This document shows, in pieces, positions 3,358 through 54,695 of a DNA stretch of 64,000 nucleotides. The stretch's first letter is position 1, and each line of letters begins with the position of its first letter. Made by a program: the position numbers and the translations under genes. Source of the stretch: a virus (taxonomy: Duplodnaviria; Caudoviricetes). The stretch is taken from positions 24,509 through 88,508 of IMG/VR virus record IMGVR_UViG_2836880742_000002. One strand, written 5' to 3'. Under the pieces are notes generated by a model. That model ran no database searches and was not told the origin of the DNA. It worked only from the letters and a program-made list of their open reading frames with translations.

Positions 3358-4782
3358 CTATTTGATGGTAAGGGCGGCTTTTATCGAGTCGGCTATCGAC
3401 TTGGCAGAGTTCGCCGTGTTCGTTGTCGTAGTCAGCTTGTCATTCAGGGCTTTTCCTTGTGCTGCCGATAGTGCCTTCGCCGTGTCCGTGGAAGTCAGGC
3501 TGTTCACCACGTCGCTTTTGTTCAGCTTGGCATCCACCTGCGACTTCAACGCCTTTCCCTGGGCAGCCGAAAGCGCGGCATCCGTGCGGTCGCTCGTCAG
3601 GCTGTTGATGACCTCCGTCTTGTCCGACAACAGCACGAGGTCACCGTCCTTGCATACATAAACGCCCTTAAAAGAACCTGCCGAAGGCATCACGTACACC
3701 TTGCCCTCTATCGGCTTCCTGGCCAAGCCGTCACTTCCGGCAAGTTCGGCATATTGCTTGGCCTTGTTACTGTCATCGGCAATGGACCAGTTGTTATAAT
3801 ACGTACCGTCAATACGGTAACACAACTGTTTCATGTCTTTCAGGTAGACCAGGCTTCCCCCTGCCTTCGTGGACGATGCCTGCTGCACCGTCTGCGTGCC
3901 CCCCACAATCTGGTCGAGCAGCACCGGGACGCAAGCCTCCTGCACCGTAATGATGCGCTTTGTCACGTTCGTGCTAGCCACCGTGTTGCCCGCTGCCACC
4001 TCCTTCACGTCTATGTAATCGTCCACCACCTCGCTCCGCTTCACCTGCGCGTCGTTCGTCACGTTCGACAGCCCCACCTGGGCTTTCGTCACCCCGTGCG
4101 GGTTGCTCTTGTTCCCCGTGTGCGAGGTCAGCTCCGACTTCGTGGCATAAGTTTTTGCCGCGTCGGCCGCCTTCAGGAACACCGACAAGTCCACCGTGCC
4201 CCCCAGGGCGTCCCAGTTGTCGTCGTTGTGGTCACTGGCCGAAGTGTTCGTCACGCATACCACGTTCGTCCCCGCCGGGTACTTCTTGCCACCCAACGTG
4301 AACTCGGCCGTCACGTTCCACGTGTCGCCCTTCACCGCGTTCGTCAGCGCGAGCACATCGGCAATGGTCGCTTTCGTCCCCATTACCTTATACACGCTGC
4401 CCAGTTTCGAGTTGATGGCATTGTTCATCTCTTCCATTGTAGGAAGCGCGTCCACCAACGCCTTCAACGCCTTTCCCTGCGCCGCGCTCAAAGCCTTGTT
4501 CGTGCTCCCGTCCGTAAGGCTGTTGATTATCTCCACAAAATTATAAACCACGCCGTTGAACACGATGCGGTGCGTGTCCGTGGCGAAACACATCGCCCCC
4601 GGCTTGCTCGATGCCAAAGCCTTCGCATCCGCCTCCGACTTCGAGGCATATACCTCAAAAAGTTGTCCCACCGGGCCACTGGCAATGGGCATGATGTCCC
4701 CGTTGTCCGCGCCGTCCATATTCCACGAGGAAATAGGTTCTTTTACTTGTTCTTCCATCATTTTCCAATTATTATTTAACAA
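3358..4782 (-). CDS. Tail fibre protein
   Basis: Three NSLTx-ALSAAQGKAL repeats, NPHGVTKAQVGLSNV phage-tail repeat, WDALGGTVDLS. Confidence 0.8.
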   Translation of the reverse strand: MLNNNWKMMEEQVKEPISSWNMDGADNGDIMPIASGPVGQLFEVYASKSEADAKALASSKPGAMCFATDTHRIVFNGVVYNFVEIINSLTDGSTNKALSAAQGKALKALVDALPTMEEMNNAINSKLGSVYKVMGTKATIADVLALTNAVKGDTWNVTAEFTLGGKKYPAGTNVVCVTNTSASDHNDDNWDALGGTVDLSVFLKAADAAKTYATKSELTSHTGNKSNPHGVTKAQVGLSNVTNDAQVKRSEVVDDYIDVKEVAAGNTVASTNVTKRIITVQEACVPVLLDQIVGGTQTVQQASSTKAGGSLVYLKDMKQLCYRIDGTYYNNWSIADDSNKAKQYAELAGSDGLARKPIEGKVYVMPSAGSFKGVYVCKDGDLVLLSDKTEVINSLTSDRTDAALSAAQGKALKSQVDAKLNKSDVVNSLTSTDTAKALSAAQGKALNDKLTTTTNTANSAKSIADSIKAALTIK

Positions 4783-5611
4783 TCAAAGAAGCATCCGCAT
4801 ACTTCTTCATCACAGTCGTGTAGTATAAGCTGCCGATATAAGTCAGCTCTATCTTTGCCGACTCCATCTCGTCCAACGAAAAGGTATTTCCGTTGATGTG
4901 GGTCCATGTGGTCGGGTCATCCGGCAAGGTGACCGATTGCGTGCCTTCCTCGCAGAATACGAATATCTCAATCCTGTGCCCGGATTTGGGAGTGCCGGCT
5001 ATGCTTAACGACTGTGGGGAGCTGATGCTTATGTCAACCATGTCCACGTCCGCCGGTATGCCCGAAAGGGTGTCTGCATGCTCCACTTTGGGACCTTTGG
5101 CCATCTCCGTCACCACGTTGAAGTCGATGAGTTGCACCATTGCATTCCCATTGAAGAAGTACAGTCCAAGATTCCCCGTCTGGGCATGGCGCATCAGGTA
5201 AACCTTGCCCGCTATGGGAGAGTTTCCGTCAAAGCCGCAGAGGAACTCACGCTTTTGGTAAGCGAAAGGCGTCACCGAGGAATCCGACCAGTTATTATGG
5301 AGTTTCCCGTCTTCTCCCGTGGCATAGATTTTTTTGCTTCGTTCATAATAAACCACGGACTTCACTTTGGTGACGGATGACATTTCCGGCATCGGAATGG
5401 TCGTGTCATTGTAATCACAGATGCCAATGCCTTGGGAAATTGCCGTGTTGAATATCAATCCGGAAAGAGAAGAGCTTGTTGCCATTCCCGGAGATTGGAG
5501 GTCGGACAAGGAATTGGCCAGTTCAAAGCCGCTTCCTCCCTCATCAAGCAACCTTGCCAATTCATCAAGCAACCGGTTGACTTCCGCCACAGTCCTGTTT
5601 AATTGTGCCAT
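4772..5611 (-). CDS. Tail/fibre accessory protein
   Basis: Shares the NNWS..PI.GKVY module with 3358..4782; position in the tail operon. Confidence 0.55.
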   Translation of the reverse strand: MAQLNRTVAEVNRLLDELARLLDEGGSGFELANSLSDLQSPGMATSSSLSGLIFNTAISQGIGICDYNDTTIPMPEMSSVTKVKSVVYYERSKKIYATGEDGKLHNNWSDSSVTPFAYQKREFLCGFDGNSPIAGKVYLMRHAQTGNLGLYFFNGNAMVQLIDFNVVTEMAKGPKVEHADTLSGIPADVDMVDISISSPQSLSIAGTPKSGHRIEIFVFCEEGTQSVTLPDDPTTWTHINGNTFSLDEMESAKIELTYIGSLYYTTVMKKYADASLIVK

Positions 5612-5631
5612 ATCTATTATTGTTTTGTTTT

Positions 5632-8600
5632 TTACATAAACTTTCCTATTCTACGCTGCCAAAATATTGCTTCGTACCCGTTCATTACGCCTGCACGGCA
5701 TTGCAATGAAGCGAACTCCCCTACATTCAAAGTCCGGCTTGTAAAGCCCGTAGGGTCGAAATCTTCAGAGGAAGCACCGGAAAGGGCGAACGCCGTGTTG
5801 CTCATATTGTACATTATGACATATTGTCCCACGAGCGACCTTATAAAATTCTTTCTTTCCTCATCTTGTGTCACGTAATAATCTGACAGGCCCGGAAGGT
5901 ACAATGGTGGAATTTCGGTGAACTCGCCACTGAAAACCACATATCCGCCAAGCTTTTCAAAATCAATTTCATATTCTCCTTCAAGTCCGTCAACAGGTTT
6001 CAGGTACTGTCCGATGTTGGTTTCTGTGATTACGGTACGTGATTTTCCAACATACCCCCTGAATATGCCTTCATTGGCAATTATAATACCCTCGAACTTC
6101 CCGTTCTTGGACTCGGTGCTCCCGTCCTCCAACACCTTGAAGTTACCGTTGGCGGTCACCGCGCCTTCAAGCGATATATTTTCTCCCTTGATGTTGACAT
6201 CCCCTTTTTCAATGTCGATACCGACTTCCTTAAGGCCGTTGTTGATACCGATATGCACAGAATCCGCCGTCTGTTTTATCTCGCTCCGCAAATCCTCGTC
6301 CAAGTCCTCCACCGAAGACGTGATTTCATCAGCCCTCTGCTCCAACTTGGAAATGCTGCCGCCATGGGATTCCAAGTCGGTGACCACGTTCCTGATGGCA
6401 CCGTCCAAAAGCTCGAACCTCGCCGACACGACGCTTCCGTCCTCCATCACGAAATTACCCTTGAAAAGGTTCCCGTGAGGTGATATTCTTGTCACGAGTT
6501 TCCCTTCAAGCGAAAACGAGTTCACACCGGCATACTGGGCGACGTAAGGGGAATCTTCCCCGTAGGCCGAGAGGACAACCACATTCTGCCGGGAAGCGTC
6601 AAAGGCATTCCCTACCGTGACAATATTGTCTTCCGCCAAAGGCACGGTGCTCCCCTCCATGTATTCCCCCGCATCGTCAGACAAATCAATGTAATCCTCG
6701 CCCACACCAACCACTCTCCTCCAGTAGAACTGGTTCGATACCCCTTCGTACACCCCTTCTTTGATATTGAACGTGCGGCACTGCGCATTGTCGCCAACCC
6801 TGAACTCGTTGACAATCCTTTTGCCTCCGTCGTCATTCACAAAGAAGCAGCGGTATGCGGTCACACGCCCCACAGAACCAAATTCCTCCACCGGCTCGCC
6901 TTCGGAATCATACACTTTTTCTCCCGCCGCGTCGATGACGATATTGTCCGTTATTTCCATTACCCTGGAACACACCATCCCCGCAGGAGACAGCACGTTG
7001 GTGCCCCCGGTATGGTAAGCATGCTTTATCTCCAACGAGTCGAAATAAGCCTTCATGCGCACGTACAACTCGTCCACTTCAAAGTACGAGCGTCCCGCCG
7101 CGTTCTTTTTCAGCAATCCGTAGCCGCTCCCGAGAAGCCCAGTGACAAAGTTGTCGCTCGAAAGGTCGCCACGAAGCAGCAGCGAGGCCAGTTCCGCAGC
7201 CCCGTCGGAAGAGATCTGGCCGCCGGATTCGCCGGATGAAAAACTACCGATTATCAGCCCTTGGAGGAAAGTAATGATGCCCGAAGCGGTATCATCGTTT
7301 AACTTTGAAAGGAACTTCTTGGCCAGTTCTTTGTTGTTCTTTTCTATCCCTTCTTTTATCTCCTTGTCTGTCCTTAGCGAAGAATAGGCGTTTGTATCCG
7401 ACGGCTCGGTTTCATCGTCCTTCTTTATCAAATACACATTTGTACCTGATGTTGAAGAGCTTACCTTTCCAGGAAAGTAACTGCTTCCGTTCAGTTTGAT
7501 GGAATCTATCTTGTCTTCAAGTGCGCCAAGACGGGAATAGGAGGCACTTTCACCGATGGTATACACCGGAGAATCCCATGGAATGTCAAGTGCAAGTTCA
7601 TAGCCAAGCACACGCATGGTACGGGGGCTTGGGAAGAATGAGGGGTTGTTGACCGTTACCTTCTGGCCTACATCGAAAGGACAAGGTGTTTCCTGTGCCT
7701 CATTACGTGCCTTTGACCAGTCTGACATGAGTTTGGCCGACACGGTGCCGATGTTGTTCCTGATTTTCTCGGCATACTTCTCTGCTTCAGATTTCAGTTC
7801 CTCTTCCGCTTCTGGGACAAGGTTCTCAAAAACATATTCCGTGTCGTATCCGGCCATGACAAATTCATTCCCGGCCTCTGGTTTTATTACCGTATCCGGC
7901 AAACGGCCCCCGTAGTCCTCGTTGGCCACTATTTCAAAGCATGTGGACGTATTGTCACTCTTTTCCGGAAGGAACGTAAGGCCGAATGTAAGTCCGGCAA
8001 GCTTTCCGGTTTGGAAGGTGATCGTAAGTTTCTCTGAAATCACATAGGAATTGTCGAACCCCACAAGCCCGGTGGTCTTGATGGTATACACCGGTACTTT
8101 CATTCCTGTGGGTTTCTTTTCCTCGCCTTCCGTGACATCAATCATTTCTTCCCCAACAGAAGATATGGAAAGCACCTTGCGTGGATAGACGTAATCGAAA
8201 GTCACGATGCCCTCTATCACTTCGTCTGGTGACATGTCGGGGTATACGTCTATATACGGTGTGCCTTCAGGAAGCATCAGCCTGCGTTGTACAACCCCGT
8301 TTACCGTAAGGCCGTCAACGTCGGAATTGAAATAACCAATGGGGATTTTCATCCTTACGAGATTTCCAATTTCCACTTTCCTCCCCTGTGACGAAGGCTC
8401 AAATTCAGAAATGTCACCACGAATACAAAGCTTGTTGAAAAGAATCTCGTTCGCGTTACCCTCAGAAACCTTGTATGATGGATTGAAAACAGCCTCATAT
8501 TTATGGCTGTTATCTGTAAATTGCAAATATGATGAAGCTCTTTCACCAACAGATACAAACGTCTCAGTACCTTTTATACCAAGGAAACAATAACCTTCTA

Positions 8601-15165: not shown

Positions 15166-15183
15166 AAAGCTAATATGAATTAG

Positions 15184-15253
15184 AGCGCATCTAAGGAATC
15201 GAACCTTAACCTTAAACAGGATTGTTCATATGCTACCATGACACCAAATGCGC
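15184..15253 (-). ncRNA. tRNA-Gly(UCC)-like RNA with 6-nt anticodon loop
   Basis: GCGCATT TG GTGT CATGGTA GCAT A TGAAC-AATCCT-GTTTA AGGT TAAGG TTCGATT CCTTA GATGCGC T; G1-C72, C2-G71, G3-C70, U73. Confidence 0.75.
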
Positions 15254-28324: not shown

Positions 28325-29836
28325 TTACAAGAAATCTCGAAGCAATTCTTCATCACTGATATAGTCAAAATCATGTGGATAAAATGTGTTTGCCAATGCG
28401 TCCATATAGTCAGGAGACCGCTTGATTCGTTTCTTGATTTCTTCCTTCGGTTCAATAATAATCCGACCGTCGCTTTGGAATTTCCAATGCGTTTCGGTAG
28501 CTTCTTCCATGAGCTTATCACAAGGAGGCAAAGCCGCACCAAATCCATTTTTGGGATTTAGCCAGTCACGCAATGACCAATAACAATAAGCACGCATATT
28601 GGCAAATTCATATTGACCTGTTATATCATGCAGCCCTCTCGCTCCTTCCGAATACTTGCAAGAATAGGCATTCTTATACCCAAGTTCCTCCAAACGGGAA
28701 TACACTCCTGCACCTTCGCCGATGGTATCAATGAAAGCCTTTGCGTTCTCATCTGAGAGATACGAAATGTGCATCCCTGCCACGTGCATGTGGTCAGCCT
28801 TGCCAGCCGATTGGTGAACTTCAAATTTAGGTACATAATTGCCATATCGAGGACACACCACACTATCATCACGTCCCATACCTGCAACGTCAGAGCCAAG
28901 CCTACATGATTTTGTAGGAGTAAAGTCTTCTTCCTGGAGACGATGCCAATTTTCGTTGGCTATCTCTATCCACTCGTATGGGATAAGTACGTCTTCCGAC
29001 ACTTTCGGGAACATGCCAAGCACTTTGACACGGAAAAGGTCGTTCGGACGATACAAACAGCCTTCCCACTTGAAATCTCCTTCCCCCGCATTGAAATCTG
29101 CTTGTTGAATGGGAGAGCACCAGTTTATTACCTTATCTTTTACCCATTCATAGTTGACTTGCCCGGGAATTATCAACTGCTTGCTGACTACGTTTTCCGC
29201 ATTCAACGAGTTAAGTCTGAACTTGGCAAAGCGGTCAGACTTCATCGCACGTGCCGCATAGCCGGTAGTGATGTTGGGATTGAACACAATAAGTAGCCGG
29301 GAGTTTCCCTGCAAATTGCCTTCAATCGCATTATAGATGGTTTCGGATATACCGGACGCTTCAGTAACTACAAACATGGTGTTCACGGCATGGAATCCAG
29401 ACCACGCCTCCATGTTGTCGTCACCACTCTTAAAACCCGTCAAAAACCATTCATAATAATTAGTTCGGATTCCTGAAGACAACAAACGACCGGGCAAAAT
29501 ACCTGCATTACGAAATAAACGGGAAACTTCCGGTATCATAATATCCTTGACCTGACGACCTGAAGGTGCAGTCATTGCAATCTTGGTATTTTTTACCAAC
29601 TTACCATCTTTCCAACGAGGAGTAAGGTACATGAAACACATGGCTGCACAAGCTGCGATATAGTCCTTTCCCCTTGATGTACCACTGGCTACAGCTGTCA
29701 TAGGATTATGCTGGACAGAGTGAAGGATAGCCTGTTGTTCCTTATCCAGCCTTGCATGGAGAACGTCATGTGCGAACTTGCACCAGTCCTCCCGCCATGC
29801 CTTCATGTATCGTATGGCCTTGTCTACCTTGCTCAT
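28325..29836 (-). CDS. terL: Terminase large subunit
   Basis: Walker A GTSRGKD, Walker B VVTEA, NP coupling motif, G.DVA..G.D and SPD..DA nuclease motifs. Confidence 0.92.
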   Translation of the reverse strand: MSKVDKAIRYMKAWREDWCKFAHDVLHARLDKEQQAILHSVQHNPMTAVASGTSRGKDYIAACAAMCFMYLTPRWKDGKLVKNTKIAMTAPSGRQVKDIMIPEVSRLFRNAGILPGRLLSSGIRTNYYEWFLTGFKSGDDNMEAWSGFHAVNTMFVVTEASGISETIYNAIEGNLQGNSRLLIVFNPNITTGYAARAMKSDRFAKFRLNSLNAENVVSKQLIIPGQVNYEWVKDKVINWCSPIQQADFNAGEGDFKWEGCLYRPNDLFRVKVLGMFPKVSEDVLIPYEWIEIANENWHRLQEEDFTPTKSCRLGSDVAGMGRDDSVVCPRYGNYVPKFEVHQSAGKADHMHVAGMHISYLSDENAKAFIDTIGEGAGVYSRLEELGYKNAYSCKYSEGARGLHDITGQYEFANMRAYCYWSLRDWLNPKNGFGAALPPCDKLMEEATETHWKFQSDGRIIIEPKEEIKKRIKRSPDYMDALANTFYPHDFDYISDEELLRDFL

Positions 29837-30249
29837 TTTTCATCATCCGGCAATTCCTGCATTAGTTTTTCAAATGGATTAATCGTAATATCTTGCTCTA
29901 TTTTCTCTGTATATCCACGGTCTCTCATCTTGGTCTTACTAAGCCAAATAAGCATAGTGTTATCCTGTTCTGTAATGGCCTTCGTAAACATGACTGTTTC
30001 GAGTTTGTCTTTGAAAGATTCTTCCACTTCCTCCCATTGCTTGCGAAATTCTTCATCCTTTTCTCTCCACTTATATGCAAGAGTACGAGATATTCCGGCA
30101 GCTTCACACGCTTTTGTTACATTCAACAGTCTTGCATCAAGCGCATTAAGAAAAATCTCTTTCTTTTTCTTTACAGGAATCCTAAATTTCTGTGCCATCT
30201 TTATTTCCCTCCAATACGTTATTAACAATTTCCAGCATCTTGCAAACAC
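29833..30249 (-). CDS. terS: Terminase small subunit (probable start MAQK about 30198)
   Basis: NVT.AC...GISR...Y.W HTH, I...KT..RGY.E. Confidence 0.85.
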   Translation of the reverse strand: MFARCWKLLITYWREIKMAQKFRIPVKKKKEIFLNALDARLLNVTKACEAAGISRTLAYKWREKDEEFRKQWEEVEESFKDKLETVMFTKAITEQDNTMLIWLSKTKMRDRGYTEKIEQDITINPFEKLMQELPDDEK

Positions 30250-30886
30250 TCAATGCCTGTGCCTTGATTTTATACTTGGCTTGTACTTTAGCACTTACTT
30301 CGTTTAATCTGCGCATTGTTTCTATGTCTAACAAAGTAAGATTTCCAAGTTCCTTTTCGGAATAGCACTCTAGCGTCTCCATGAGTTTATCAAACGACAC
30401 TTTCTGGGTATCGACAAACATTAAAGTAACCGGAACAACTTCATTATTAGGCATTTCAACCGTATAGTTAATGTCCCTCACGCTTTCTAATACTTCATTG
30501 CTGATATGGGCGTATTCCTTTAATGCCACATCTGTTATTTCATCAAGAAGTTGCTTTAAGACCTCTGCATCGTCCTGTCCGACAATACTGTTGTGGCTCA
30601 ACTGTGTTGCCAACAACCAATCATTAGACGTATCAGACTCGTCAATATACATTACATGGATAGATGTCAGTCCTGCCATCTTCGCAGCCTGTGTCCTATG
30701 GTTGCCACTGACAACCGTATATGTTCCATCCTCATGCTTTACGCAGAACGGAACAGAGGATAATTGCCCATCTCTACGAATATTATTCACAAGTGCGTTA
30801 AACGTATCATTACTCATAAAATGAGCATTCTTCTTGATAAGTTTAATGTCAGAAAGCTGAACTTCTGCTATTTTGAATTTCTCCAT
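30182..30886 (-). CDS. ParB-like protein linked to DNA modification/packaging
   Basis: L..NI..DG.L..VVSGNHR..AA..AG ParB motif. Confidence 0.85.
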   Translation of the reverse strand: MEKFKIAEVQLSDIKLIKKNAHFMSNDTFNALVNNIRRDGQLSSVPFCVKHEDGTYTVVSGNHRTQAAKMAGLTSIHVMYIDESDTSNDWLLATQLSHNSIVGQDDAEVLKQLLDEITDVALKEYAHISNEVLESVRDINYTVEMPNNEVVPVTLMFVDTQKVSFDKLMETLECYSEKELGNLTLLDIETMRRLNEVSAKVQAKYKIKAQALSVCKMLEIVNNVLEGNKDGTEI

Positions 30887-30889
30887 TGT

Positions 30890-32977
30890 TTACTCCTTTC
30901 TCGGTTCGTTTCCGTATTTCTGTACAAATGCCTTTAAAATCTCATCTAATTTTCCACGAATGCCTGCGTCTTGGATATAGTGAAGTTTTCCCACGCATCT
31001 TTCATGTAATTTGAAAACTCCCCGATACTTCATACTTACGGGTTTATCAGTAAACACAGACGTGGCAATAATCCCACATTCGTGTTTGTACCGAATATCC
31101 AACTCTGCTTTAAATTCCGTTGAAAGCACCCCTGTAATGAGCAATCTGCTTAACTTCTGTATCGGATGGTCTATCACAAAATCTGATTTCATCCAAACAG
31201 CATCCATGCCATATTTGCTTACTTTCAGAAAGTCAAACATACAAGCTCCAAATACATAATCATCCAAGAACCACAGGTAACAGAACGGTGCGGATCCAAG
31301 TATAATGCCCTTCTTTAGATATATCATCCGCAAGTAGTCTATTTCCGCCATAGAAGCACGGATGAAACGTAACTTACTTTTCTCGGTAAGTATGTAATCA
31401 TCCGGCAGCCGTTTGTATTTCAACGGGATGATGGTACGCTTATTGAAACTGTTCTCGCCCGTATCTCCAACATTGGAGTAAACATAAGTACGCTGGTCTT
31501 TGAAAACCTCCCTGCGTCCCATAAAGCCGTGTTGTGATAATAGCATATAATTCACCAACCCTTCGTCTATCTCCGAATACTTGGTATGGGTACGTTCCTG
31601 CCAACCGAAATCATCCAAAAGAAAACGCTGCAAGGCGTTGCTTGTAGCTTTCATGCCGGAATGAAACTCGTTCTGGTAAATCATGATATCGTTTTCATTG
31701 CAGTTGAGTATTGCATCCGATATATCTGCACAATACAAAACTTCAATGTTCTTCGGTTTAAGATTATCGACAAGTTTTTGATACCTCTCCGTGTATTTCT
31801 TCTTGTAGTAATCCAACCGGGCTATAAAATCATCGTATAGTGATTTATGGTAAATGTCTTGTGAGTTCTTATGTTTCTTGATAGCATTGAACAAATGAAT
31901 AGAAGCAACAATCTCTGCTGGATTGTCCGACCGGATGTCCATGAAACTATATTCCTCATTAAAACACAACTCTCTCACTTCTCCTTTGATTGCTTTGTAC
32001 ATGAGGTAGATAAAATACTCTTTCGTGTACACTTTTATCTCACGGTTGGTAAGCACTTGCTCTATATCCATATAGTAGGAGTTTACTATGTGGGCGATGT
32101 CGAACTTTGAAGCCTCTTTTTTTATGTAAGAAAGCATACGGTTGGTCTTCTTGAACATCTGACCAACGATTGTTACATTATCCGAATGCTCTGCTGCCCA
32201 CAAAAGAGGTTTGTGCCTTTGCGGAACTTTAGAATAATCAATATGGAATGCTTCAAGGCATTTTTCAATCGTGGTAAGTTGCTTGTATTCTTCCATATCC
32301 TCATGTAAGTAAGCATATTCCACGAATGAATACATAAATTTGATTGTTTCCAGCACTTTGTCAAAATCCCATGAGCTATTGAAGATGCGGAACTCACATG
32401 TGCCAATTTTAGAGATTGAACACAGATTGAGCCAATACCTTATATGCCCTCTGTCCGAACCGTTGCTGAACACTTTTAACAGATTGTCAACTGTGTCAAC
32501 ATTCAAAACTCTTTGTACTACATCCCAAGGAGGACTTGGTACAAGATACTTCGTTTCCCACCATTCGGCAATGTCAAAAATCCGTTTGATTGGATATGCG
32601 GTATAGTAAGAAAGCGCGAACATCCGTTTAATAACATCCAAATCCATATCCTTGATATACAGATGCGCATCAAACCCCTCATTCCACATGAGATAACTCC
32701 CGGCATCTCTCATCGTTTGGATGAAATCTTTTAGTTCCTGTAAATCTTCAACGCAGTAATGATATGGCCGGGTGTTTATCTCACCACCAAACTGACCATG
32801 ATGCGTGACTGCCGAACCGTCCGAGTTATTCATCATGGTTAGCTTGTTATCCGTCCACTTGTAACCAGATGGAAGTGGTATGCGTTGTTTGTCACCATCA
32901 GCAAATTCCAATTCCATGCCAAATGTACGATTGGCGATATAGTCAATCCAGGGCTTATCTATATTCATGTTCTGCAT
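30890..32977 (-). CDS. Amidoligase (COOH-NH2 ligase) fused to a degenerate MTase-like domain and a C-terminal GNAT-like DNA-modification domain
   Basis: TFGMELEF, DGS, EI, H, RY..NL, T.EFR ligase motifs; C-terminal SDF..KLSRL..TSVFTDKPVSMKYRG. Confidence 0.7.
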   Translation of the reverse strand: MQNMNIDKPWIDYIANRTFGMELEFADGDKQRIPLPSGYKWTDNKLTMMNNSDGSAVTHHGQFGGEINTRPYHYCVEDLQELKDFIQTMRDAGSYLMWNEGFDAHLYIKDMDLDVIKRMFALSYYTAYPIKRIFDIAEWWETKYLVPSPPWDVVQRVLNVDTVDNLLKVFSNGSDRGHIRYWLNLCSISKIGTCEFRIFNSSWDFDKVLETIKFMYSFVEYAYLHEDMEEYKQLTTIEKCLEAFHIDYSKVPQRHKPLLWAAEHSDNVTIVGQMFKKTNRMLSYIKKEASKFDIAHIVNSYYMDIEQVLTNREIKVYTKEYFIYLMYKAIKGEVRELCFNEEYSFMDIRSDNPAEIVASIHLFNAIKKHKNSQDIYHKSLYDDFIARLDYYKKKYTERYQKLVDNLKPKNIEVLYCADISDAILNCNENDIMIYQNEFHSGMKATSNALQRFLLDDFGWQERTHTKYSEIDEGLVNYMLLSQHGFMGRREVFKDQRTYVYSNVGDTGENSFNKRTIIPLKYKRLPDDYILTEKSKLRFIRASMAEIDYLRMIYLKKGIILGSAPFCYLWFLDDYVFGACMFDFLKVSKYGMDAVWMKSDFVIDHPIQKLSRLLITGVLSTEFKAELDIRYKHECGIIATSVFTDKPVSMKYRGVFKLHERCVGKLHYIQDAGIRGKLDEILKAFVQKYGNEPRKE

Positions 32978-33833
32978 ATCTCAACTTGACTAATGATTTA
33001 TAACTGGGTGTAAATACAACAAAGTCTCCAATGCAATAATCTGAGCAACGACCATTGATTACGTCCATTACAGTGTATTCGCTTGAGCTATCTGAATATT
33101 GTAAACCGTTGTCAAAGCAGCAACACTCATTCATGTCAGCCATAGAATACCCACAATCAAGAAGTATCTGGCTGCGTTCCGGATAAACGCCTACGACCTT
33201 AGTCCACAATTCAATACCGTTTACACCTAATTTGTTTTCATTGCCATTGTATGGAATTGTGCCAAATAGCATATATTCTCCAATGCGTACATCGCTTATG
33301 AATTTAGGCAGGTTTTCATTCTGTCCTAACCAAAAGCTACCACCTAAACTGATTGATTCAATATCGCCATTCAATGTTGCCCATATTTTACACAGTCGTT
33401 GCATATCCGGTCTGCTTCCATTCAAACAACCAGAGGTTATCATCCCGTAAGCATGGGCGTTATCATCGCAAGAACGAACCATCTTTGCAATCTGTCTTGC
33501 TTCAAACAAACTTACCCCTTCTCTATTATCAAACGCATTGATAGGAATATAGATATTCTTGATGCATCTGTCTACAACGCAATCCATTACATCATACGTG
33601 GTAGTAACCACTGCGCCTTTTTGATTACGCCTAGCCTTTCCAATAGAGTAACACACACTATCTTCAAAGTGAAGCGAAAAAATATCATTATCAACTCTAT
33701 GATGGAGATGCTTCCAAATATCCTCATAAAAATCTTTGAACATGAGCGAAACAGGAACATTTACAAGTGTTTCCGCTTTCTTGATGTTCTTAACAATGTT
33801 GTCTGTATATATAATTACTTTCATAACTCCCAC
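32955..33833 (-). CDS. PLP-dependent alanine/ornithine racemase-family protein
   Basis: N-terminal Lys (SLMFK), D.REG, SLGGS, RIGE..LFG, LD.G motifs. Confidence 0.8.
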   Translation of the reverse strand: MGVMKVIIYTDNIVKNIKKAETLVNVPVSLMFKDFYEDIWKHLHHRVDNDIFSLHFEDSVCYSIGKARRNQKGAVVTTTYDVMDCVVDRCIKNIYIPINAFDNREGVSLFEARQIAKMVRSCDDNAHAYGMITSGCLNGSRPDMQRLCKIWATLNGDIESISLGGSFWLGQNENLPKFISDVRIGEYMLFGTIPYNGNENKLGVNGIELWTKVVGVYPERSQILLDCGYSMADMNECCCFDNGLQYSDSSSEYTVMDVINGRCSDYCIGDFVVFTPSYKSLVKLRYAEHEYR

Positions 33834-34720
33834 TTCAAAATGACACGTTCAACTCCTTTGTATTTTGTAGCACGTTTAGGCGAGAAACCAGCATTGGTGA
33901 AACTTTTAATACTTGCGTCATTCTTGGGTGAAGTCATGGCAAATATTTCTTGTACTCCATTGGAGACCAACCTTGCAATATTTGCATTAAGAAGAATATA
34001 CTGAAACCCATTACCTCTGTAATCTGAACTGACAAAACATTTATCAACGTATGCTGTACCGTATTCTGTAAAATAAGCAAGTGAATAAGCTACAAAAGAG
34101 CCGTCCAGCCATAAGCCATAACTGCAACCGGATTGCAAACATTTCGCTATATCCTGAGGTTCTGATGCAAAGCATATTTCAGGATTAGATAGTAAGGCTT
34201 GTTCCATTGTTTCAATCTCGGTCATATCAAACATAGACAGAGACTTGACTTCCATTTTACATTCAATACTTCCTCTATGGGTAGGAAATAGAGGCTCGTA
34301 TCGGTCTATCCATGCTTTGGAGAGGAATGCATCAACATCTGTTTGAGACAACAATGCTTTTCTGTAATTGTCAAAAATGCCTAATACAAATTCTTTATGT
34401 TTGGTTAGTTGCTCATTCTTCAAAGGACACTTGCCACTACGGAAAACAAAACCTTTCTTTACCGACTTTACCCACAAAGGATAAGTTCTACACATGATAG
34501 GTTTGTAACCATTGTCACATGACTTACAGTCTTTAGCGATACATTTTACCTTTTTACCGCCAAAGTAATCATTGTCTATAATTCGTAAATGAGATATTTC
34601 CTGCTCGTGCCCGTTAAATTCATAGGGCAAAATAACGATATGCCCGTCCGAACCGAACGAACAACACTTCCAGCCGCAGTCAGATTTTTCACATGCTCTT
34701 ATTAGTCCTTTTCCGTCCAT
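33821..34720 (-). CDS. YkgJ-like Cys-cluster (Fe-S) domain fused to a GNAT acyltransferase
   Basis: C....CG..CC and KP..CR.YP; V..DYRGNG and N.AS...F...GF GNAT motifs. Confidence 0.8.
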   Translation of the reverse strand: MDGKGLIRACEKSDCGWKCCSFGSDGHIVILPYEFNGHEQEISHLRIIDNDYFGGKKVKCIAKDCKSCDNGYKPIMCRTYPLWVKSVKKGFVFRSGKCPLKNEQLTKHKEFVLGIFDNYRKALLSQTDVDAFLSKAWIDRYEPLFPTHRGSIECKMEVKSLSMFDMTEIETMEQALLSNPEICFASEPQDIAKCLQSGCSYGLWLDGSFVAYSLAYFTEYGTAYVDKCFVSSDYRGNGFQYILLNANIARLVSNGVQEIFAMTSPKNDASIKSFTNAGFSPKRATKYKGVERVILKWEL

Positions 34721-34731
34721 ATTCTTGGGTT

Positions 34732-34749
34732 GTATATAACTTCATATAC
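34732..34749 (-). promoter_or_regulatory. T-GAAG-NN-R leader hairpin before the modification operon
   Basis: GTATA-TGAAGTTA-TATAC. Confidence 0.55.
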
Positions 34750-34757
34750 TTTATTTG

Positions 34758-34827
34758 AGCGGAAACAGGGAATCGAACCCCACTCTTTGGCTGGAATGCC
34801 AACGCTCTACCGATGAGCTATTTCCGC
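34758..34827 (-). tRNA. tRNA-Gly(UCC)-like RNA with 6-nt anticodon loop
   Basis: GCGGAAA TA GCTC ATCGGTA GAGC G TTGGC-ATTCCA-GCCAA AGAG TGGGG TTCGATT CCCTG TTTCCGC T. Confidence 0.85.
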
Positions 34828-34887
34828 ATTTGCCAATACTGCCAAACCACCGCTTGCTTGGCAAATCTGACAGCATCCCATCAAACT

Positions 34888-35352
34888 CTATTGATGGTTG
34901 GCTAATAAATCTGGATTATCGTAAATATTTCCTTTTAGTTCATATTCATATGAAATTGTTCCATGTGCATGCCCATCATTCCAATATGAGGAATATACAA
35001 AACGCGATACAACATAGTCTTTATAAGACTTATGTTTTATACCAAAAACTCCATTATCAAAGCATACTTCACTTATTAAACCGTAGTCGTATCCATTTGT
35101 GACAATTTGTTCAACAATATCGCCCTCATAAATCTCTTTACCGTTCCTATCTTGTAGCCCTGTGTATTGTCCAACGGTTTCATTTTGTACTTTTGTTGCA
35201 ACTATCGTGATAGTGTTTCCTTCATCAGATAATGTCGTTTCGGTACAAGCGTGGTATATGTAATATTCGCCTTGATTTTCTATAAGGTCTCCGTACATCC
35301 ATTTTCCGCTATCAAGGCTTTTTCCTCTGAATCTTATTCTTTTCATATTCAA
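34888..35352 (-). CDS. YopX family protein
   Basis: I.FRGK..W.YG.L..GQYTGL.D.NGKEIYEGDI..GNIYDNP. Confidence 0.9.
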   Translation of the reverse strand: MNMKRIRFRGKSLDSGKWMYGDLIENQGEYYIYHACTETTLSDEGNTITIVATKVQNETVGQYTGLQDRNGKEIYEGDIVEQIVTNGYDYGLISEVCFDNGVFGIKHKSYKDYVVSRFVYSSYWNDGHAHGTISYEYELKGNIYDNPDLLANHQ

Positions 35353-35750
35353 AACAAACTTGCTTGTTCATACTTAGGTCCTTTCTTCTCAACAACTCCA
35401 AATTCTGCGATTTCAATTCCAGTCTTTTCAGTCAGCCATTTTGCCAAAATATGACGATGGCAGAAATCTCCCGGCTTTTCGTAGCAGCAAAGAGCGACAT
35501 CTTTACCATTGCCTAATGCTTGGATTTGTTCTAAAACCTTTCCCGCATCCTGTTTGGCAAGAATGTCATCATACATTTTAAGATATTCTTCATGCGAGCA
35601 AGCTCCACTTATCATATATCTCGTAGGACAAACATTCAACATTTGAGGAGCTTGAATAAATCTTGGTCTGCCAATAGCGACACAGATTATCATTACTCCT
35701 GCTTCATTCAGTTTCCGGGCATTCCCGAAATATGATGTGTAAATCTTCAT
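35349..35750 (-). CDS. DUF488-like protein
   Basis: IYTSYF..ALCCYEKP.DFCHR. Confidence 0.8.
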   Translation of the reverse strand: MKIYTSYFGNARKLNEAGVMIICVAIGRPRFIQAPQMLNVCPTRYMISGACSHEEYLKMYDDILAKQDAGKVLEQIQALGNGKDVALCCYEKPGDFCHRHILAKWLTEKTGIEIAEFGVVEKKGPKYEQASLF

Positions 35751-52025: not shown

Positions 52026-52693
52026 ATCGGGTAGGAGGTAAATGCTAATCATAAAAGGCATTTGCCTCCTATTTTCACATTTACCGACCTCCCACACCAC
52101 CGTACGTGCGGTTCCGCATACGGCGGTTTCGTGCTTTCTCATCTTGCGATGTGTGGCAAGTTGTTTTCAGCTATCCCTATGAGTAGCGTCACTTCTATCC
52201 TATTGTCGGATTCCGTCCTATCGTCTTGGATAGAGAGTTCCTTTCGGACATCTGACGAGGTGTCTCACAGGGTAACATTCATTTACTATTGCACTGCACG
52301 ATTCAGTCCTTCCCTATAGGCACACGTGCCTTGGGTACTATGACCTCTGCTGACTTCTCACGGCAAGCTTTACTCCGTCATTGTACATCGAATGATTCAT
52401 CTTCACCCATGCGTCCGTGAGACCTCCTCGGATAAGGGCTTATTCTTTCCATCTTATACCCACTTCATTTACACCAACCATTCCGAATAGCTATGGGACT
52501 TTGATTTGTCTTGCAATCTCATCCATGGTCAAATGCCTTGTATGAAGTTTCTGTGCGTTAGGTCAGATGTTTGCCGCCAGCTTCTTTCAGATTCCACCTC
52601 GCGATAGACACCCTTGCTATTGGCTATACGATTCCCGCTATTAGGGCTCGTTAGGGACTTGCACCCATTAGAATAAGCTCATGCCGAGCATAC
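52026..52693 (-). mobile_element. ORF-less group IIC intron (about 668 nt)
   Basis: 5' GTATGCTCGGCATG..GGTGCAAGTCCC; GAAGTCAGCAGAGGTCATAGTA; DV AACCGCCGTATGCGGAACCGCACGTACGGTGGTG; 3' CTCCTACCCGAT; follows a terminator. Confidence 0.9.
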
Positions 52694-54621: not shown

Positions 54622-54695
54622 TGGTATCGGCAGGATTCGAACCTGCAATCTACCCGTTAACCAACAGGCGCGTTAACCAATTCCGCCACGATACC
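54622..54695 (-). ncRNA. tRNA-like RNA with Leu-type D arm and 6-nt anticodon loop
   Basis: GGTATCG TG GCG GAATTGGTTAA CGC G CCTGT-TGGTTA-ACGGG TAGATT GCAGG TTCGAAT CCTGC CGATACC A. Confidence 0.75.

What the first reader, a model, noticed from the sequence alone, without database searches (positions are those of the whole stretch)
28325..35750. Packaging-coupled operon: tRNA-Gly mimic, Fe-S/GNAT, PLP racemase, amidoligase-GNAT and ParB - candidate new DNA hypermodification pathway
Seen: four tightly coupled minus-strand genes run straight into terS/terL. They encode a YkgJ-like Cys cluster fused to a GNAT; an alanine/ornithine racemase-family PLP enzyme; a COOH-NH2 ligase fused to a middle region with no intact MTase catalytic motif and a C-terminal SDF..SMKYRG domain; and ParB. 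A tRNA-Gly-like RNA lies 38 nt upstream, with YopX and DUF488 ahead of it. Known: ParB genes beside terminases mark phage DNA-modification loci, and Mom-type GNATs use Gly-tRNA(Gly) to hypermodify adenine. Inference: the operon builds a D-amino-acid or peptide adduct (racemise, acylate, ATP-dependent ligation) and puts it on phage DNA at packaging to defeat restriction/CRISPR. I know of no described phage base modification that uses a racemase.
Basis: partly seen in the sequence, partly recalled or inferred. Interest (0 to 1): 0.9.

Follow-up and report, generated by a model that had tools for sequence, protein, structure and literature searches.

The report
Phage DNA-modification operon with private tRNA-Gly
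A gut-type prophage carries, just ahead of its DNA-packaging genes, an odd glycine tRNA and a set of enzymes that most likely hang tRNA-borne glycine, and then more, on adenines of the phage's own DNA, an untested relative of what phage Mu's Mom enzyme does.

Summary
On the minus strand lie DUF488, YopX, a tRNA-Gly-like gene with a 6-nt anticodon loop, a Cys-rich/GNAT protein, an alanine-racemase-fold PLP protein, an Amidoligase_2 + Dam-like (no DPPY) + phage-GNAT fusion, ParB, terS and terL.

In 78 dereplicated IMG/VR relatives with flanks, the fusion is followed by ParB in 78 and preceded by DUF488 in 75. 57 carry a glycine-type tRNA just upstream. The PLP enzyme and the Cys/GNAT protein are swappable accessories. 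Other clades carry an opine dehydrogenase instead, or nothing.

The tRNAs keep the glycine identity elements and covary as real tRNAs. Many have anticodon loops unfit for decoding.

Best reading (about 0.6): a late, post-replicative, Gly-tRNA-fed adenine hypermodification of phage DNA, extended by the ligase and tailored by the accessories.

Racemase activity, a D-amino acid and coupling to packaging are not shown. The GNAT is not in Pfam's Mom family.

This scan has already flagged the same module in at least eight other genomes. I found no paper describing it, but three likely papers were not readable.

The parts
35349..35750 (-). DUF488 protein (133 aa), a core partner of the module. It has the conserved FCHR motif and a C-terminal ...EQASLF tail that resembles a sliding-clamp-binding motif.
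   Evidence: PF22751 39.6 bits, PF04343 29.7 bits. Found upstream of the fusion gene in 75 of 78 dereplicated relatives. Tail: 44 of 64 unique sequences end in [STCA]LF. That the tail is a clamp motif is recalled, not tested.
34888..35352 (-). YopX-family protein (154 aa), a variable neighbour and probably not part of the module.
   Evidence: PF09643 E 2.5e-18. Absent or elsewhere in many relatives.
34757..34827 (-). tRNA-Gly(UCC)-like gene with a 6-nt anticodon loop (AUUCCA), G1-C72, C2-G71, G3-C70 and U73. Proposed private glycyl donor.
   Evidence: Rfam tRNA 53 bits. ARAGORN 'tRNA-???'. Sequence. Cloverleaf minimum-energy fold, z -3.5. 95.7-100% identical copies in 49 of 75 loci. Own covariance model 88 bits. 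Covariation in 30 distinct relatives.
33821..34720 (-). Accessory protein (299 aa): an N-terminal domain with eight invariant Cys (residues about 1-145) fused to an acetyl-CoA-type GNAT (residues about 170-299, R-G-x-G motif).
   Evidence: Acetyltransf_1 E 2.6e-8. 21 of 21 relatives hit it. Invariant Cys at 10, 15, 19, 20, 60, 68, 77 and 98. The two halves occur separately in other clades.
32955..33833 (-). Accessory fold-type III (alanine-racemase-fold) PLP enzyme (292 aa). Invariant K33 at the end of the first barrel strand and invariant Y253. The reaction is unknown.
   Evidence: Model pLDDT 93.4. Foldseek E 5e-14 to 1e-10 to D-amino-acid dehydratases, aldolases and alanine racemases. VIA Z 20.6, 288 of 292 residues aligned to alanine racemase 1rcq. 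Invariant residues.
32216..32977 (-). Amidoligase_2 (glutamine-synthetase-like COOH-NH2 ligase) domain of the 695-aa fusion protein, residues about 1-254.
   Evidence: PF12224 32.2 bits against a cut-off of 22. Invariant E22, E24, G64-G65-E66, N68, T69, H105, R180, E195 and R197 in 17 sequences down to 23% identity.
31466..32158 (-). Dam-like domain of the fusion protein (residues about 274-504) without the methyltransferase motifs. Proposed DNA-recognition and adenine-flipping module.
   Evidence: VIA Z 11.9 to E. coli Dam 2g1p, 10.6 to T4 Dam, 10.2 to DpnM. Homologues hit PF22555 or PF22556, 'Phage DNA adenine methylase-like domain'. No [DNS]PP[YFWH] in this region in any of 80 homologues.
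30953..31390 (-). GNAT-phage-like domain of the fusion protein (residues about 530-675), with invariant S-D-F and S-x-K-Y-R-G motifs. Proposed aminoacyl transferase.
   Evidence: PF22559 88.6 bits. GNAT fold; phage Mu Mom 8bv8 is nominally the best GNAT match (Z 11.0, rmsd 3.1, 137 residues) but tied with ordinary GNATs at 10.6-9.7. Invariant residues.
30182..30886 (-). ParB-like protein (234 aa), invariably next to the fusion gene. Proposed loader or activator on double-stranded DNA.
   Evidence: ParB_N 25.9 bits (cut-off 26.3), phrog_7405 E 3e-56, TIGR00180 E 3e-8. Present downstream in 78 of 78 dereplicated relatives. Conserved S-G-[NH]-H-R motif.
29833..30249 (-). Terminase small subunit.
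   Evidence: phrog_4044 E 4.7e-13. Follows ParB in 77 of 78 relatives.
28325..29836 (-). Terminase large subunit.
   Evidence: phrog_2 E 2.5e-29.
15183..15253 (-). Second, divergent tRNA-Gly-like gene of the same prophage (6-nt loop AAUCCU), in the tail-gene region.
   Evidence: Own covariance model 58.1 bits, E 5e-12. Sequence. ARAGORN and Rfam at gathering score missed it. Its minimum-energy fold is not a cloverleaf, z -1.8.

Best explanation
This is a late-expressed module that covalently hypermodifies the phage's own DNA after replication, most likely at the N6 of adenine.

Proposed division of labour:
- The catalytically dead Dam-like domain of the 695-aa fusion protein finds the site and flips the adenine.
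[quoted passage not shown] Here a phage-encoded tRNA supplies the glycine. It keeps the GlyRS identity elements but has an anticodon loop unfit for decoding.
- The fused Amidoligase_2 domain uses ATP to add a second unit through an amide bond, either a carboxylate onto the glycyl amine or an amine onto a carboxymethyl group.
- Clade-specific accessory enzymes make or tailor that unit. In this phage they are an alanine-racemase-fold PLP enzyme and an acetyl-CoA-type GNAT with a Cys-rich domain. Elsewhere an opine dehydrogenase takes their place.
- ParB loads or activates the enzyme on double-stranded DNA.
- DUF488, probably tethered to the host sliding clamp by its C-terminal tail, does an unknown step on DNA.

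What is shown: the domain folds, the invariant gene partnership, the tRNA's features and its conservation.

What is inferred: the donor, the target atom, the order of steps, the chemistry of every accessory enzyme, and the biological purpose (evasion of restriction or other DNA-targeting defences).
For: 1. Architecture. Amidoligase_2 and GNAT-phage-like are found by Pfam. The middle domain has the Dam, T4 Dam and DpnM fold (Z 11.9, 10.6, 10.2). Homologues hit Pfam's phage Dam-like families, but the DPPY-type motif is absent in all 80 homologues.

2. The GNAT domain's nominally best structural match is Mom (Z 11.0, 137 residues, rmsd 3.1). Mom transfers glycine from Gly-tRNA-Gly to N6-adenine in dsDNA (PMC13219725; abstract, sections 13 and 14 read).

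3. Conserved partnership in 78 dereplicated IMG/VR relatives with flanks: ParB 78, terS 77, DUF488 75, glycine-type tRNA 57. It holds down to about 25% identity of the fusion protein.

4. Which tRNA is linked. Among 16 clusters at 60% identity that have upstream sequence, 8 carry a Gly-type tRNA within 3.5 kb upstream on the same strand. Other isotypes in that interval occur in only 3 clusters, and in two of those beside a Gly-type tRNA.

5. The tRNAs are real and selected. 97.5% of cells pair, against 74% in shuffles and 41-58% when partners are slid. 110 cells carry double changes, against 33 in shuffles. Pairs 1-72, 2-71 and 3-70 are nearly invariant while pairs 4-7 covary. 27 of 30 distinct sequences end in U plus C after the acceptor stem, and all keep CC in the loop. 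These are the bacterial glycine identity elements (PMC9976931, passages).

6. Many loops are unfit for decoding. 12 of 30 distinct sequences have loops of 5, 6 or 8 nt. Others have A, C or G in place of U33, or an ACC anticodon.

7. All accessory enzymes act on amino acids or primary amines: a PLP fold-III enzyme, acetyl-CoA-type GNATs and opine dehydrogenases (PF02317, E 1e-26).

8. Precedents. ParB activates a phage T-dioxygenase on dsDNA, and ParB and terminase genes co-occur with such enzymes (PMC13229309). A GNAT and PLP enzymes act on amino-acid-bearing thymidines in DNA (PMC8989533, passages).

9. The DUF488 tail resembles a clamp-binding motif. ParB-DUF488 fusions exist in archaea (bioRxiv 10.1101/2025.10.10.680097, passages).
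Against: - There is no biochemical or sequencing evidence of any modified base.
- The GNAT domain is not a Mom-family member. Pfam's Mom model (PF25680) scores Mu Mom at 253 bits but does not hit this domain at E <= 10. hhalign of the domain profile against Mom gives probability 0.2%. Structurally Mom is tied with ordinary acetyl-CoA GNATs, within 1 Z unit.
- A profile of the whole protein finds no solved structure by sequence.
- 21 of 78 relatives, and 8 of 16 clusters, have no glycine tRNA in the slot.
- In the window's own clade the same slot also holds tRNA-Phe, tRNA-Cys or tRNA-Ser genes in some phages, so it is partly a general tRNA site.
- One relative (L101) has a Trp-type tRNA with G73 there.
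- About eight of the 30 distinct tRNAs have canonical-looking loops (my reading of the loops) and could simply decode GGN codons.
- The window's own protein does not reach Pfam's Dam-like models at E <= 0.1. A 90%-identical homologue scores 26.2 bits against a cut-off of 27.
- The role proposed for the amidoligase has no direct precedent on adenine.
Confidence: 0.6

Rival explanations
1. The enzymes do modify DNA, but the tRNA genes are ordinary phage tRNAs or decoys against host anticodon nucleases. They sit in a tRNA-insertion hot spot, and the GNAT uses acyl-CoA or an acyl-phosphate made by the amidoligase rather than aminoacyl-tRNA.
For: tRNA-Phe, tRNA-Cys and tRNA-Ser genes share the slot in the window's clade. 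21 of 78 relatives lack a Gly tRNA there. About eight of 30 distinct Gly tRNAs have canonical-looking loops (my reading). The GNAT domain is structurally as close to acetyl-CoA GNATs as to Mom. Phage tRNAs that counter tRNA-targeting defences are known (abstract of PMC12409363, seen in the listing).
Against: The isotype is glycine in 8 of 8 clusters that have a conserved tRNA in the slot. One further cluster holds only a Trp-type tRNA, and other isotypes are sporadic extras. The glycine identity elements are fixed while the decoding geometry is lost in 12 of 30 sequences (loops of 5, 6 or 8 nt) and compromised in others (non-U33, ACC anticodons). The 6-nt loop is invariant in 49 near-identical copies whose stems vary. 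By inspection of the alignment, the GNAT-phage-like domain lacks the R/Q-x-x-G-x-G/A CoA-pyrophosphate loop that the accessory GNAT has; that motif is recalled.
Confidence: 0.17
2. The module acts on RNA, and the tRNA-like RNA is its substrate rather than its donor. For example, the module builds an amino-acid adduct on an adenine of the tRNA.
For: A tRNA gene is physically linked to the enzymes. Most of the loops have A after the CC. From recall: amino-acid adducts on N6 of A37 are known in tRNA.
Against: Several of the tRNAs have U in that position. 21 of 78 modules have no tRNA gene. Dam-fold domains, ParB and a clamp-type tail on DUF488 all point to double-stranded DNA. What is conserved in the tRNA is the GlyRS identity set, which matters for charging.
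Confidence: 0.08
3. The module modifies a protein or cell-wall precursor. It would be a Fem-like tRNA-dependent peptide addition plus amide ligation, for example on a virion or packaging protein or on peptidoglycan. This is the alternative the first reader named as a refutation.
For: From recall, Pfam describes Amidoligase_2 as a family acting in peptide-type contexts. tRNA-dependent GNATs such as FemX act on peptidoglycan precursors (Fig. 5 legend of PMC13219725). An alanine-racemase-fold enzyme and, in one relative, a weak NlpC/P60 hit (E 4e-4) have a cell-wall flavour.
Against: A Dam-fold domain is fused between the ligase and the GNAT in every member. Two-domain Dam-like + GNAT proteins with ParB exist without any ligase, for example Gordonia phage Sting gp28 and gp29. 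ParB is invariably adjacent. No signal peptides or lysis genes were seen in the operon; this is by inspection only, not tested.
Confidence: 0.07

Closest known systems
Bacteriophage Mu Mom (Pfam PF25680; PDB 8bv8; PMC13219725)
   Same: GNAT fold; Mom is nominally the best structural match of the C-terminal domain (Z 11.0). It is a phage enzyme made late. Its proven donor is Gly-tRNA-Gly and its target is N6 of adenine in dsDNA, which fits the glycine-tRNA link found here.
   Different: No sequence relationship is detectable. Mom is a single-domain enzyme that uses host tRNA and its own HTH-like insertion for DNA. Here the GNAT is fused to a dead Dam-like domain and an amidoligase, travels with ParB and DUF488, often brings its own non-decoding tRNA-Gly, and has tailoring enzymes. 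The product is therefore expected to be larger than carbamoylmethyl.
Two-domain DAM-like-phage + GNAT-phage-like proteins with a ParB neighbour, e.g. Gordonia phage Sting gp28 and gp29 (PQ201089), also Soos, Jollymon and Clawz
   Same: The same Pfam families for the Dam-like and GNAT domains (PF22555 316 bits, PF22559 177 bits) and a ParB-like gene directly downstream. The window protein aligns at 23% identity over residues 351-689.
   Different: There is no amidoligase domain, no ARAGORN-detectable tRNA in +-5 kb and no Pfam hit for the three upstream ORFs tested, so no DUF488 among them. The genes lie among early or DNA-metabolism genes rather than directly before terS. In GenBank they are annotated only as 'DNA methyltransferase' or 'hypothetical protein'.
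Post-replicative thymidine hypermodification pathways of phages (PMC8989533)
   Same: Multi-enzyme, natural-product-like decoration of a base in polymer DNA with amino-acid-derived groups. They include PLP enzymes and a GNAT that acetylates an amine on DNA, and amidoligase genes were noted as unexplained neighbours (passages).
   Different: Those pathways start from 5-hmdU with a kinase and aGPT-Pplase, act on thymidine and use free amino acids. No tRNA, Dam-like domain or DUF488 is involved. The word 'racemase' does not occur in that paper.
ParB-dependent phage thymine dioxygenases (PMC13229309)
   Same: A ParB-like protein without a partition role is the obligatory partner of a phage DNA base-modifying enzyme on dsDNA. 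ParB and terminase genes are frequent neighbours (abstract and section 12).
   Different: The catalytic partner is different (an Fe/2OG dioxygenase against a GNAT/ligase fusion).
Non-proteinogenic tRNA-Gly species that feed Fem peptidyl transferases in staphylococci (recalled; FemX shown in Fig. 5 of PMC13219725)
   Same: Dedicated glycine tRNAs that serve a GNAT-fold aminoacyl transferase rather than the ribosome.
   Different: Those are cellular, keep normal anticodon loops, and feed cell-wall synthesis. Here the tRNAs are phage-encoded, often have 5-, 6- or 8-nt loops or ACC anticodons, and are linked to a DNA-directed enzyme.

Membership tests
Mom protein family (Pfam PF25680) | Sequence match to the family model | tested here: not met
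   Mu Mom scores 253 bits. The window's GNAT domain (residues 505-695) gives no PF25680 hit at E <= 10. hhalign of profile A6 against Mom gives probability 0.2%.
Mom protein family (Pfam PF25680) | GNAT fold close to the Mom crystal structure | tested here: inconclusive
   8bv8_A has Z 11.0, rmsd 3.1, 137 aligned residues. It is the top GNAT but tied with ordinary GNATs at Z 10.6-9.7. Foldseek ranks it 17th, E 3.8e-4.
Mom protein family (Pfam PF25680) | Gly-tRNA-Gly as donor and N6 of adenine in dsDNA as acceptor | not testable with these tools
   Only contextual evidence: the glycine-tRNA linkage and the fused Dam-like domain.
GNAT-phage-like (Pfam PF22559) | Sequence match above the gathering score | tested here: met
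   88.6 bits against 27; 92.1 bits for the domain alone.
Amidoligase_2 (Pfam PF12224; glutamine-synthetase-like COOH-NH2 ligases) | Sequence match above the gathering score, and conserved acidic and Arg residues of the ligase core | tested here: met
   32.2 bits against 22. E22, E24, E66, H105, R180, E195 and R197 are invariant in 17 sequences. That these are the catalytic residues is inferred.
Dam / D12-class N6-adenine DNA methyltransferases | Dam fold | tested here: met
   Z 11.9 (178 residues) to E. coli Dam, 10.6 to T4 Dam, 10.2 to DpnM. Distant homologues hit PF22556 at 57.8 bits. The window's own protein is not listed at E <= 0.1.
Dam / D12-class N6-adenine DNA methyltransferases | Catalytic (D/N/S)PP(Y/F/W) motif and a Gly-rich AdoMet loop | tested here: not met
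   No such motif in the Dam-like region of any of 80 homologues. After the first strand the sequence reads N-S-Y-Y, with no glycines (by inspection).
Fold-type III PLP enzymes (alanine racemase fold) | Barrel plus beta-domain fold, with a Lys at the end of the first barrel strand | tested here: met
   Z 20.6, 288 of 292 residues aligned to 1rcq. K33 is invariant in 33 sequences and follows strand 28-32 of the model.
Amino-acid racemases (alanine or ornithine racemase) | Racemase activity, as opposed to aldolase, dehydratase or decarboxylase | not testable with these tools
   Alanine racemase (20.6), D-threonine aldolase (20.2) and D-serine dehydratase (19.8) are tied. NCBIfam Orr scores 26 bits against a cut-off of 480. 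Invariant Y253 and the absence of a conserved His-x-Cys/Asp near the C-terminus lean towards a two-base racemase. The comparison motifs are recalled.
YkgJ / CxxCxxCC family (Pfam PF03692) | Sequence match to the family model | tested here: inconclusive
   0 of 21 relatives match at E <= 5. A protein-atlas cluster at rank 18 (score 0.91) has PF03692 on 18% of its members. Eight invariant Cys and a Y-K-P-x-x-C-R motif are present.
ParB/Srx fold (Pfam PF02195) | ParB N-terminal domain with the conserved Arg-containing box | tested here: met
   25.9 bits against 26.3, just under. TIGR00180 E 3e-8. phrog_7405 E 3e-56. The S-G-[NH]-H-R motif has invariant H63 and R64 in 19 sequences.
Bacterial tRNA-Gly | Identity elements G1-C72, C2-G71, U73, C35, C36 (PMC9976931) | tested here: met
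   Present in the window's gene. In 30 distinct relatives: 1-72 G-C in 27, 2-71 C-G in 30, CC in all loops, U after the acceptor stem in 28.
Bacterial tRNA-Gly | Seven-nucleotide anticodon loop with U33, fit for decoding | tested here: not met
   6-nt loop AUUCCA on a 5-bp stem. The same loop is in 49 near-identical copies.
DUF488 (Pfam PF04343 / PF22751 'active DUF488-N3 subclade') | Sequence match above the gathering score | tested here: met
   39.6 bits against 27 and 29.7 bits against 22.2. The FCHR motif is invariant in 21 sequences.

The most novel reading that the evidence does not exclude
Bacteroidota phages run a combinatorial, natural-product-like family of DNA hypermodifications. 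A private, non-decoding tRNA-Gly feeds a Dam-guided aminoacyl transferase that glycylates adenine in phage DNA. A fused ATP-dependent amidoligase then extends the adduct into a peptide-like group. Its cap differs by clade: in this phage an N-acetylated, possibly D-amino-acid unit made by the PLP enzyme and the GNAT, elsewhere an opine-type N-carboxyalkyl group. ParB and a clamp-tethered DUF488 couple the chemistry to freshly replicated DNA. If so, these would be the first virus-encoded tRNAs known to me (from recall) whose job is DNA modification rather than translation.
Probability: 0.35. Interest if true: 0.9.

Novelty: new variant of a known kind. Interest (0 to 1): 0.76.

Why it matters
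If true, tRNA-dependent DNA aminoacylation would grow from one enzyme (Mom) into a large, modular family that is common in gut and rumen phages: the two collection scans confirmed 456 and 461 relatives in IMG/VR.

It would give a function to aberrant phage tRNA genes that tRNA finders call 'undetermined'.

It would also assign roles to four orphan Pfam families: DUF488-N3a, the two DAM-like-phage families and GNAT-phage-like.

Peptide-like adenine adducts could block restriction enzymes, CRISPR nucleases and sequencing chemistries. The enzymes could become tools for site-directed DNA labelling.

The system is directly testable. The module occurs in proviruses, and some homologues carry NCBI genome-record names such as Parabacteroides pacaensis. 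Cultured Gordonia phages carry the two-domain core.

Tried and rejected
Searches that found nothing
- Megablast of the 7.4-kb region against 50,697 phage records: no match.
- tblastn of the 695-aa protein against the same records: only 5 Gordonia phage records, covering the C-terminal half.
- HMM search of the whole-protein profile against PDB sequences: 0 hits at E <= 10.
- hhalign of the GNAT profile against Mu Mom: probability 0.2%, so I dropped 'Mom family member'.
- Rfam at gathering score on 7 distant loci found one tRNA only. My own covariance model later found one more in L051 and a second copy in the window. ARAGORN found nothing in 13 of 22 distant loci.
- PADLOC: only DUF488 hits a defence-candidate model (PDC-M19A, E 1e-7). 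The other four proteins hit nothing.
- Pfam gave nothing for 6 of 10 accessory ORFs of other clades.
- The protein atlas gave only unnamed clusters for the Cys-rich domain, plus one weak PF03692 lead.

Sequencing runs: no RNA holder is listed. Two runs kept as contigs hold small shares (0.18 and 0.05) of the stretch. I did not lay them, so nothing is concluded about expression or habitat.

Literature: my searches for this architecture found no description of the amidoligase/Dam-like/GNAT fusion or of a tRNA-Gly link. Three papers likely to bear on it are not held and were not read:
- Iyer et al. 2009 on amidoligases.
- Iyer et al. 2013 on DNA-modification systems.
- Burroughs and Aravind 2023 on DUF488.
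The novelty claim is limited by that. Supplements of the Mom and ParB papers were not seen either.

Readings considered and rejected
- 'Coupled to packaging' as a mechanism: only gene order supports it.
- YopX as part of the module: its presence is variable.
- The tRNA as an attachment-site remnant: it lies inside the late region and covaries as a tRNA.

Full report
WHAT IS THERE

The window is part of an 88.5-kb record that IMG/VR classes as a provirus. All genes below are on the minus strand.

| Coordinates | Product | Evidence |
|---|---|---|
| 35349-35750 | DUF488 | PF22751, 39.6 bits |
| 34888-35352 | YopX | |
| 34757-34827 | tRNA-like gene | |
| 33821-34720 | 299-aa Cys-rich/GNAT protein | |
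| 32955-33833 | 292-aa PLP-fold protein | |
| 30890-32977 | 695-aa fusion protein | |
| 30182-30886 | ParB | |
| 29833-30249 | terS | |
| 28325-29836 | terL | |

From the 299-aa gene to terL, the genes overlap by 13, 23, 68 and 4 nt or are 3 nt apart.

THE PROTEINS

- 299-aa protein. It has an acetyl-CoA-type GNAT at residues 179-279 (Acetyltransf_1, E 2.6e-8; 21 of 21 relatives hit it). Its N-terminal domain has eight invariant cysteines. The 'YkgJ-like' label could not be confirmed: PF03692 matched 0 of 21 members at E <= 5. One weak atlas lead exists.
- 292-aa protein. Its sequence hits are only marginal. It folds with pLDDT 93 into a complete alanine-racemase fold. VIA gives Z 20.6 with 288 of 292 residues aligned to P. 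aeruginosa alanine racemase. That is tied with D-threonine aldolase (20.2) and D-serine dehydratase (19.8). K33, at the end of the first barrel strand, and Y253 are invariant in 33 sequences. It is a fold-type III PLP enzyme. 'Racemase' is one possibility, not a finding.
- 695-aa protein. It is Amidoligase_2 (32.2 bits) plus GNAT-phage-like (88.6 bits). Homologues also hit Pfam's 'Phage DNA adenine methylase-like' domains 1 or 2 in the middle.
- Model of residues 255-695 (pLDDT 88). Residues 274-504 align with E. coli Dam (Z 11.9), T4 Dam (10.6) and DpnM (10.2). Residues 530-675 align with GNATs. The first of these is phage Mu Mom (Z 11.0, rmsd 3.1, 137 residues), but ordinary GNATs follow within one Z unit.
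- Missing methyltransferase motifs. None of 80 homologues has a (D/N/S)PP(Y/F/W/H) motif in the Dam-like part. The loop after its first strand has no glycines.
- Relation to Mom by sequence. There is none: Pfam's Mom model does not hit the domain and hhalign gives probability 0.2%.

THE tRNA-LIKE GENE

- Rfam scores it 53 bits as tRNA. ARAGORN cannot name its anticodon.
- The sequence gives a 7-bp acceptor stem starting G-C, C-G, G-C, with U after it. A 5-bp anticodon stem closes a 6-nt loop, AUUCCA. The minimum-energy fold is that cloverleaf (z -3.5).
- The retained positions (G1-C72, C2-G71, U73, C35, C36) are the bacterial glycine identity set (PMC9976931, passages).
- A second, divergent copy with loop AAUCCU lies at 15183-15253. 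Only my own covariance model found it.

COMPARATIVE EVIDENCE

Two scans of IMG/VR confirmed 456 and 461 relatives of the fusion protein. The best 80 of each were returned. That gave 151 locus records with 91 distinct gene sequences; some contigs were fetched twice.

Among the 78 distinct sequences with at least 2.5 kb upstream and 1.5 kb downstream:

| Feature | Present in |
|---|---|
| ParB-like gene downstream | 78 |
| terS | 77 |
| DUF488 upstream | 75 |
| Glycine-type tRNA within 3.5 kb upstream, same strand | 57 |
| GNAT half of the 299-aa protein | 57 |
| PLP enzyme | 55 |
| Cys-rich domain | 48 |
| Opine dehydrogenase (PF02317, E 1e-26) | 7 |
| No accessory gene at all | 11 |

- The two halves of the 299-aa protein occur separately in other clades.
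- Some phages have DUF488 and terL 77-86% identical to the window's, yet carry a fusion protein only 23-26% identical, with a different accessory set (L092, L098, L136). The module is exchanged as a cassette.
- The core is therefore DUF488 + fusion protein + ParB, placed before terS. The 'racemase' and the Cys/GNAT protein are clade-specific extras.

THE tRNA LINK ACROSS LINEAGES

- The fusion proteins fall into 17 clusters at 60% identity, and 16 have upstream sequence. Eight of these have a Gly-type tRNA in the slot. Other isotypes (Phe, Ser, Cys; one Trp-type) occur in three clusters, and in two of those they sit beside the Gly-type gene.
- In the window's clade the gene is 95.7-100% identical in 49 of 75 loci of the first scan. 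The neighbouring proteins are only 57-90% identical.
- In 30 distinct sequences aligned to the model, 97.5% of cells form pairs. Shuffles give 74% and slid partners give 41-58%. Cells with double changes number 110, against 33 in shuffles. The first three acceptor pairs are nearly invariant while pairs 4-7 covary.
- All 30 keep CC in the loop, and 27 end in U then C after the acceptor stem. By a stem-finding heuristic, loop length is 7 nt in 18, 6 nt in 9, 8 nt in 2 and 5 nt in 1. Several 7-nt loops have A, C or G in place of U33, or an ACC anticodon.
- About eight look like canonical tRNA-Gly (my reading of the loops). These RNAs are selected to be charged with glycine, but often not to decode.
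- Exceptions:
  - 21 of 78 modules have no such gene.
  - One relative has a Trp-type tRNA with G73 in the slot.
  - The slot also takes other tRNAs in the window's clade.

DUF488

- The module-linked DUF488 proteins share an invariant FCHR motif and a tail at the very C-terminus of the type (E/Q)-Q-x-S-L-F.
- 44 of 64 unique sequences end exactly in [STCA]LF. Most of the others have S-L-F, S-L-W or L-x-L-L within the last three residues.
- This resembles the bacterial sliding-clamp-binding motif Q-L-[SD]-L-F. That motif is recalled from the literature, and no binding was tested.
- Earlier notes of this scan report clamp-type tails on DUF488 proteins elsewhere.
- ParB-DUF488 fusions that bind CTP exist in archaea (bioRxiv 10.1101/2025.10.10.680097, passages).
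- Together this points to DNA as the place of action.

HOW IT MOST LIKELY WORKS

Mom shows that a GNAT can move glycine from Gly-tRNA-Gly to N6 of adenine in dsDNA (PMC13219725). My model is this:
1. The dead Dam-like domain supplies site recognition and base flipping. In Mom an HTH-like insertion does that job.
2. The fused GNAT takes glycine from charged tRNA, preferably the phage's own.
3. The fused amidoligase extends the adduct through an ATP-dependent amide bond.
4. The accessory enzymes, all of which act on amino acids or primary amines, make or cap the added unit.

ParB would load or activate the enzyme on dsDNA, as shown for a phage thymine dioxygenase (PMC13229309). A GNAT that acetylates an amine on DNA, and PLP enzymes acting on base-borne amino acids, are known from thymidine pathways (PMC8989533).

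Every chemical step here is inference. The folds, the partnerships and the tRNA features are shown.

I give the DNA/Gly-tRNA reading about 0.6. The rivals:
- Unrelated or decoy tRNAs, with another acyl donor: 0.17.
- The tRNA is the substrate: 0.08.
- A protein or cell-wall target: 0.07.

COMPARISON AND NOVELTY

- The domain families are in Pfam, so the architecture has been seen by curators. Cultured Gordonia phages carry the two-domain Dam-like/GNAT protein next to ParB, annotated merely as 'DNA methyltransferase'.
- My searches found no paper that describes the three-domain fusion, its DUF488/ParB partnership or the tRNA-Gly link. Three papers by the group that defined these families could not be read.
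- Within this scan the same module has been reported from at least eight other genomes, with the same reading. This window is another member. It adds the PLP/Cys-GNAT accessory set and the dereplicated counts.
- I class it as a new variant of a known kind: tRNA-dependent GNAT modification of phage DNA, and multi-step hypermodification pathways.

VERDICT

Interest is 0.76.

Noticed in passing
window 35352-35378 (-), last nine residues of DUF488: Conserved extreme C-terminal tail ...EQASLF. 44 of 64 unique module-linked DUF488 proteins end in [STCA]LF, and most of the others carry the motif within the last three residues. It resembles the bacterial sliding-clamp-binding motif (recalled).
   Followed up: partly
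window 15183-15253 (-): Second tRNA-Gly-like gene with a 6-nt loop (AAUCCU) among the tail genes. ARAGORN and Rfam at gathering score missed it. Relatives have a counterpart about 6 kb past terL with loop ACUCCAU (for example L003 20588-20659).
   Followed up: partly
window 54622-54695 (-): Another odd tRNA: Rfam tRNA 50.9 bits, and ARAGORN reports a four-base anticodon (ggtt). Its isotype and purpose are unknown.
   Followed up: no
window 52026-52608 (-): Group II intron RNA domains (RF02001 139 bits, RF00029 50 bits, RF01998 45 bits) inside the prophage.
   Followed up: no
L098, L092, L136 (IMG/VR loci): The phage backbone matches the window's (DUF488 77-84% and terL 84-86% identical), and L092 and L098 carry the window-type tRNA (L136 has a more divergent Gly-like one, 63.5 bits). 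Yet the fusion protein is only 23-26% identical and the accessory genes differ. The modification module is swapped as a cassette.
   Followed up: partly
L139 4914-5987, L118 4685-6004, L136 4906-5958, L151 4901-5986: In another clade the gene between the tRNA-Gly gene(s) and the fusion gene is an opine dehydrogenase (PF02317, E about 1e-26, scanned for L139 and L118). L139 and the L148-150 group there carry two tRNA-Gly genes, including ACC anticodons that bacteria normally lack (recalled).
   Followed up: partly
L101 4262-4335: A tRNA with the same acceptor-stem start as the window's gene, but with a CCA (Trp) anticodon in a 7-nt loop and G as discriminator, sits in the Gly slot of one relative.
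   Followed up: no
L156 (Gordonia phage Sting PQ201089) 4689-7015: Cultured actinophages carry the two-domain Dam-like/GNAT-phage-like protein (gp28, annotated 'DNA methyltransferase') directly followed by a ParB-like gene (gp29), with no tRNA in +-5 kb. This is a ready experimental handle.
   Followed up: partly
L009, L039, L040, L056 (IMG/VR loci): In some close relatives 0.7-1.8 kb of extra DNA separates the fusion gene from ParB, where the window has 3 nt. Its content was not examined.
   Followed up: no
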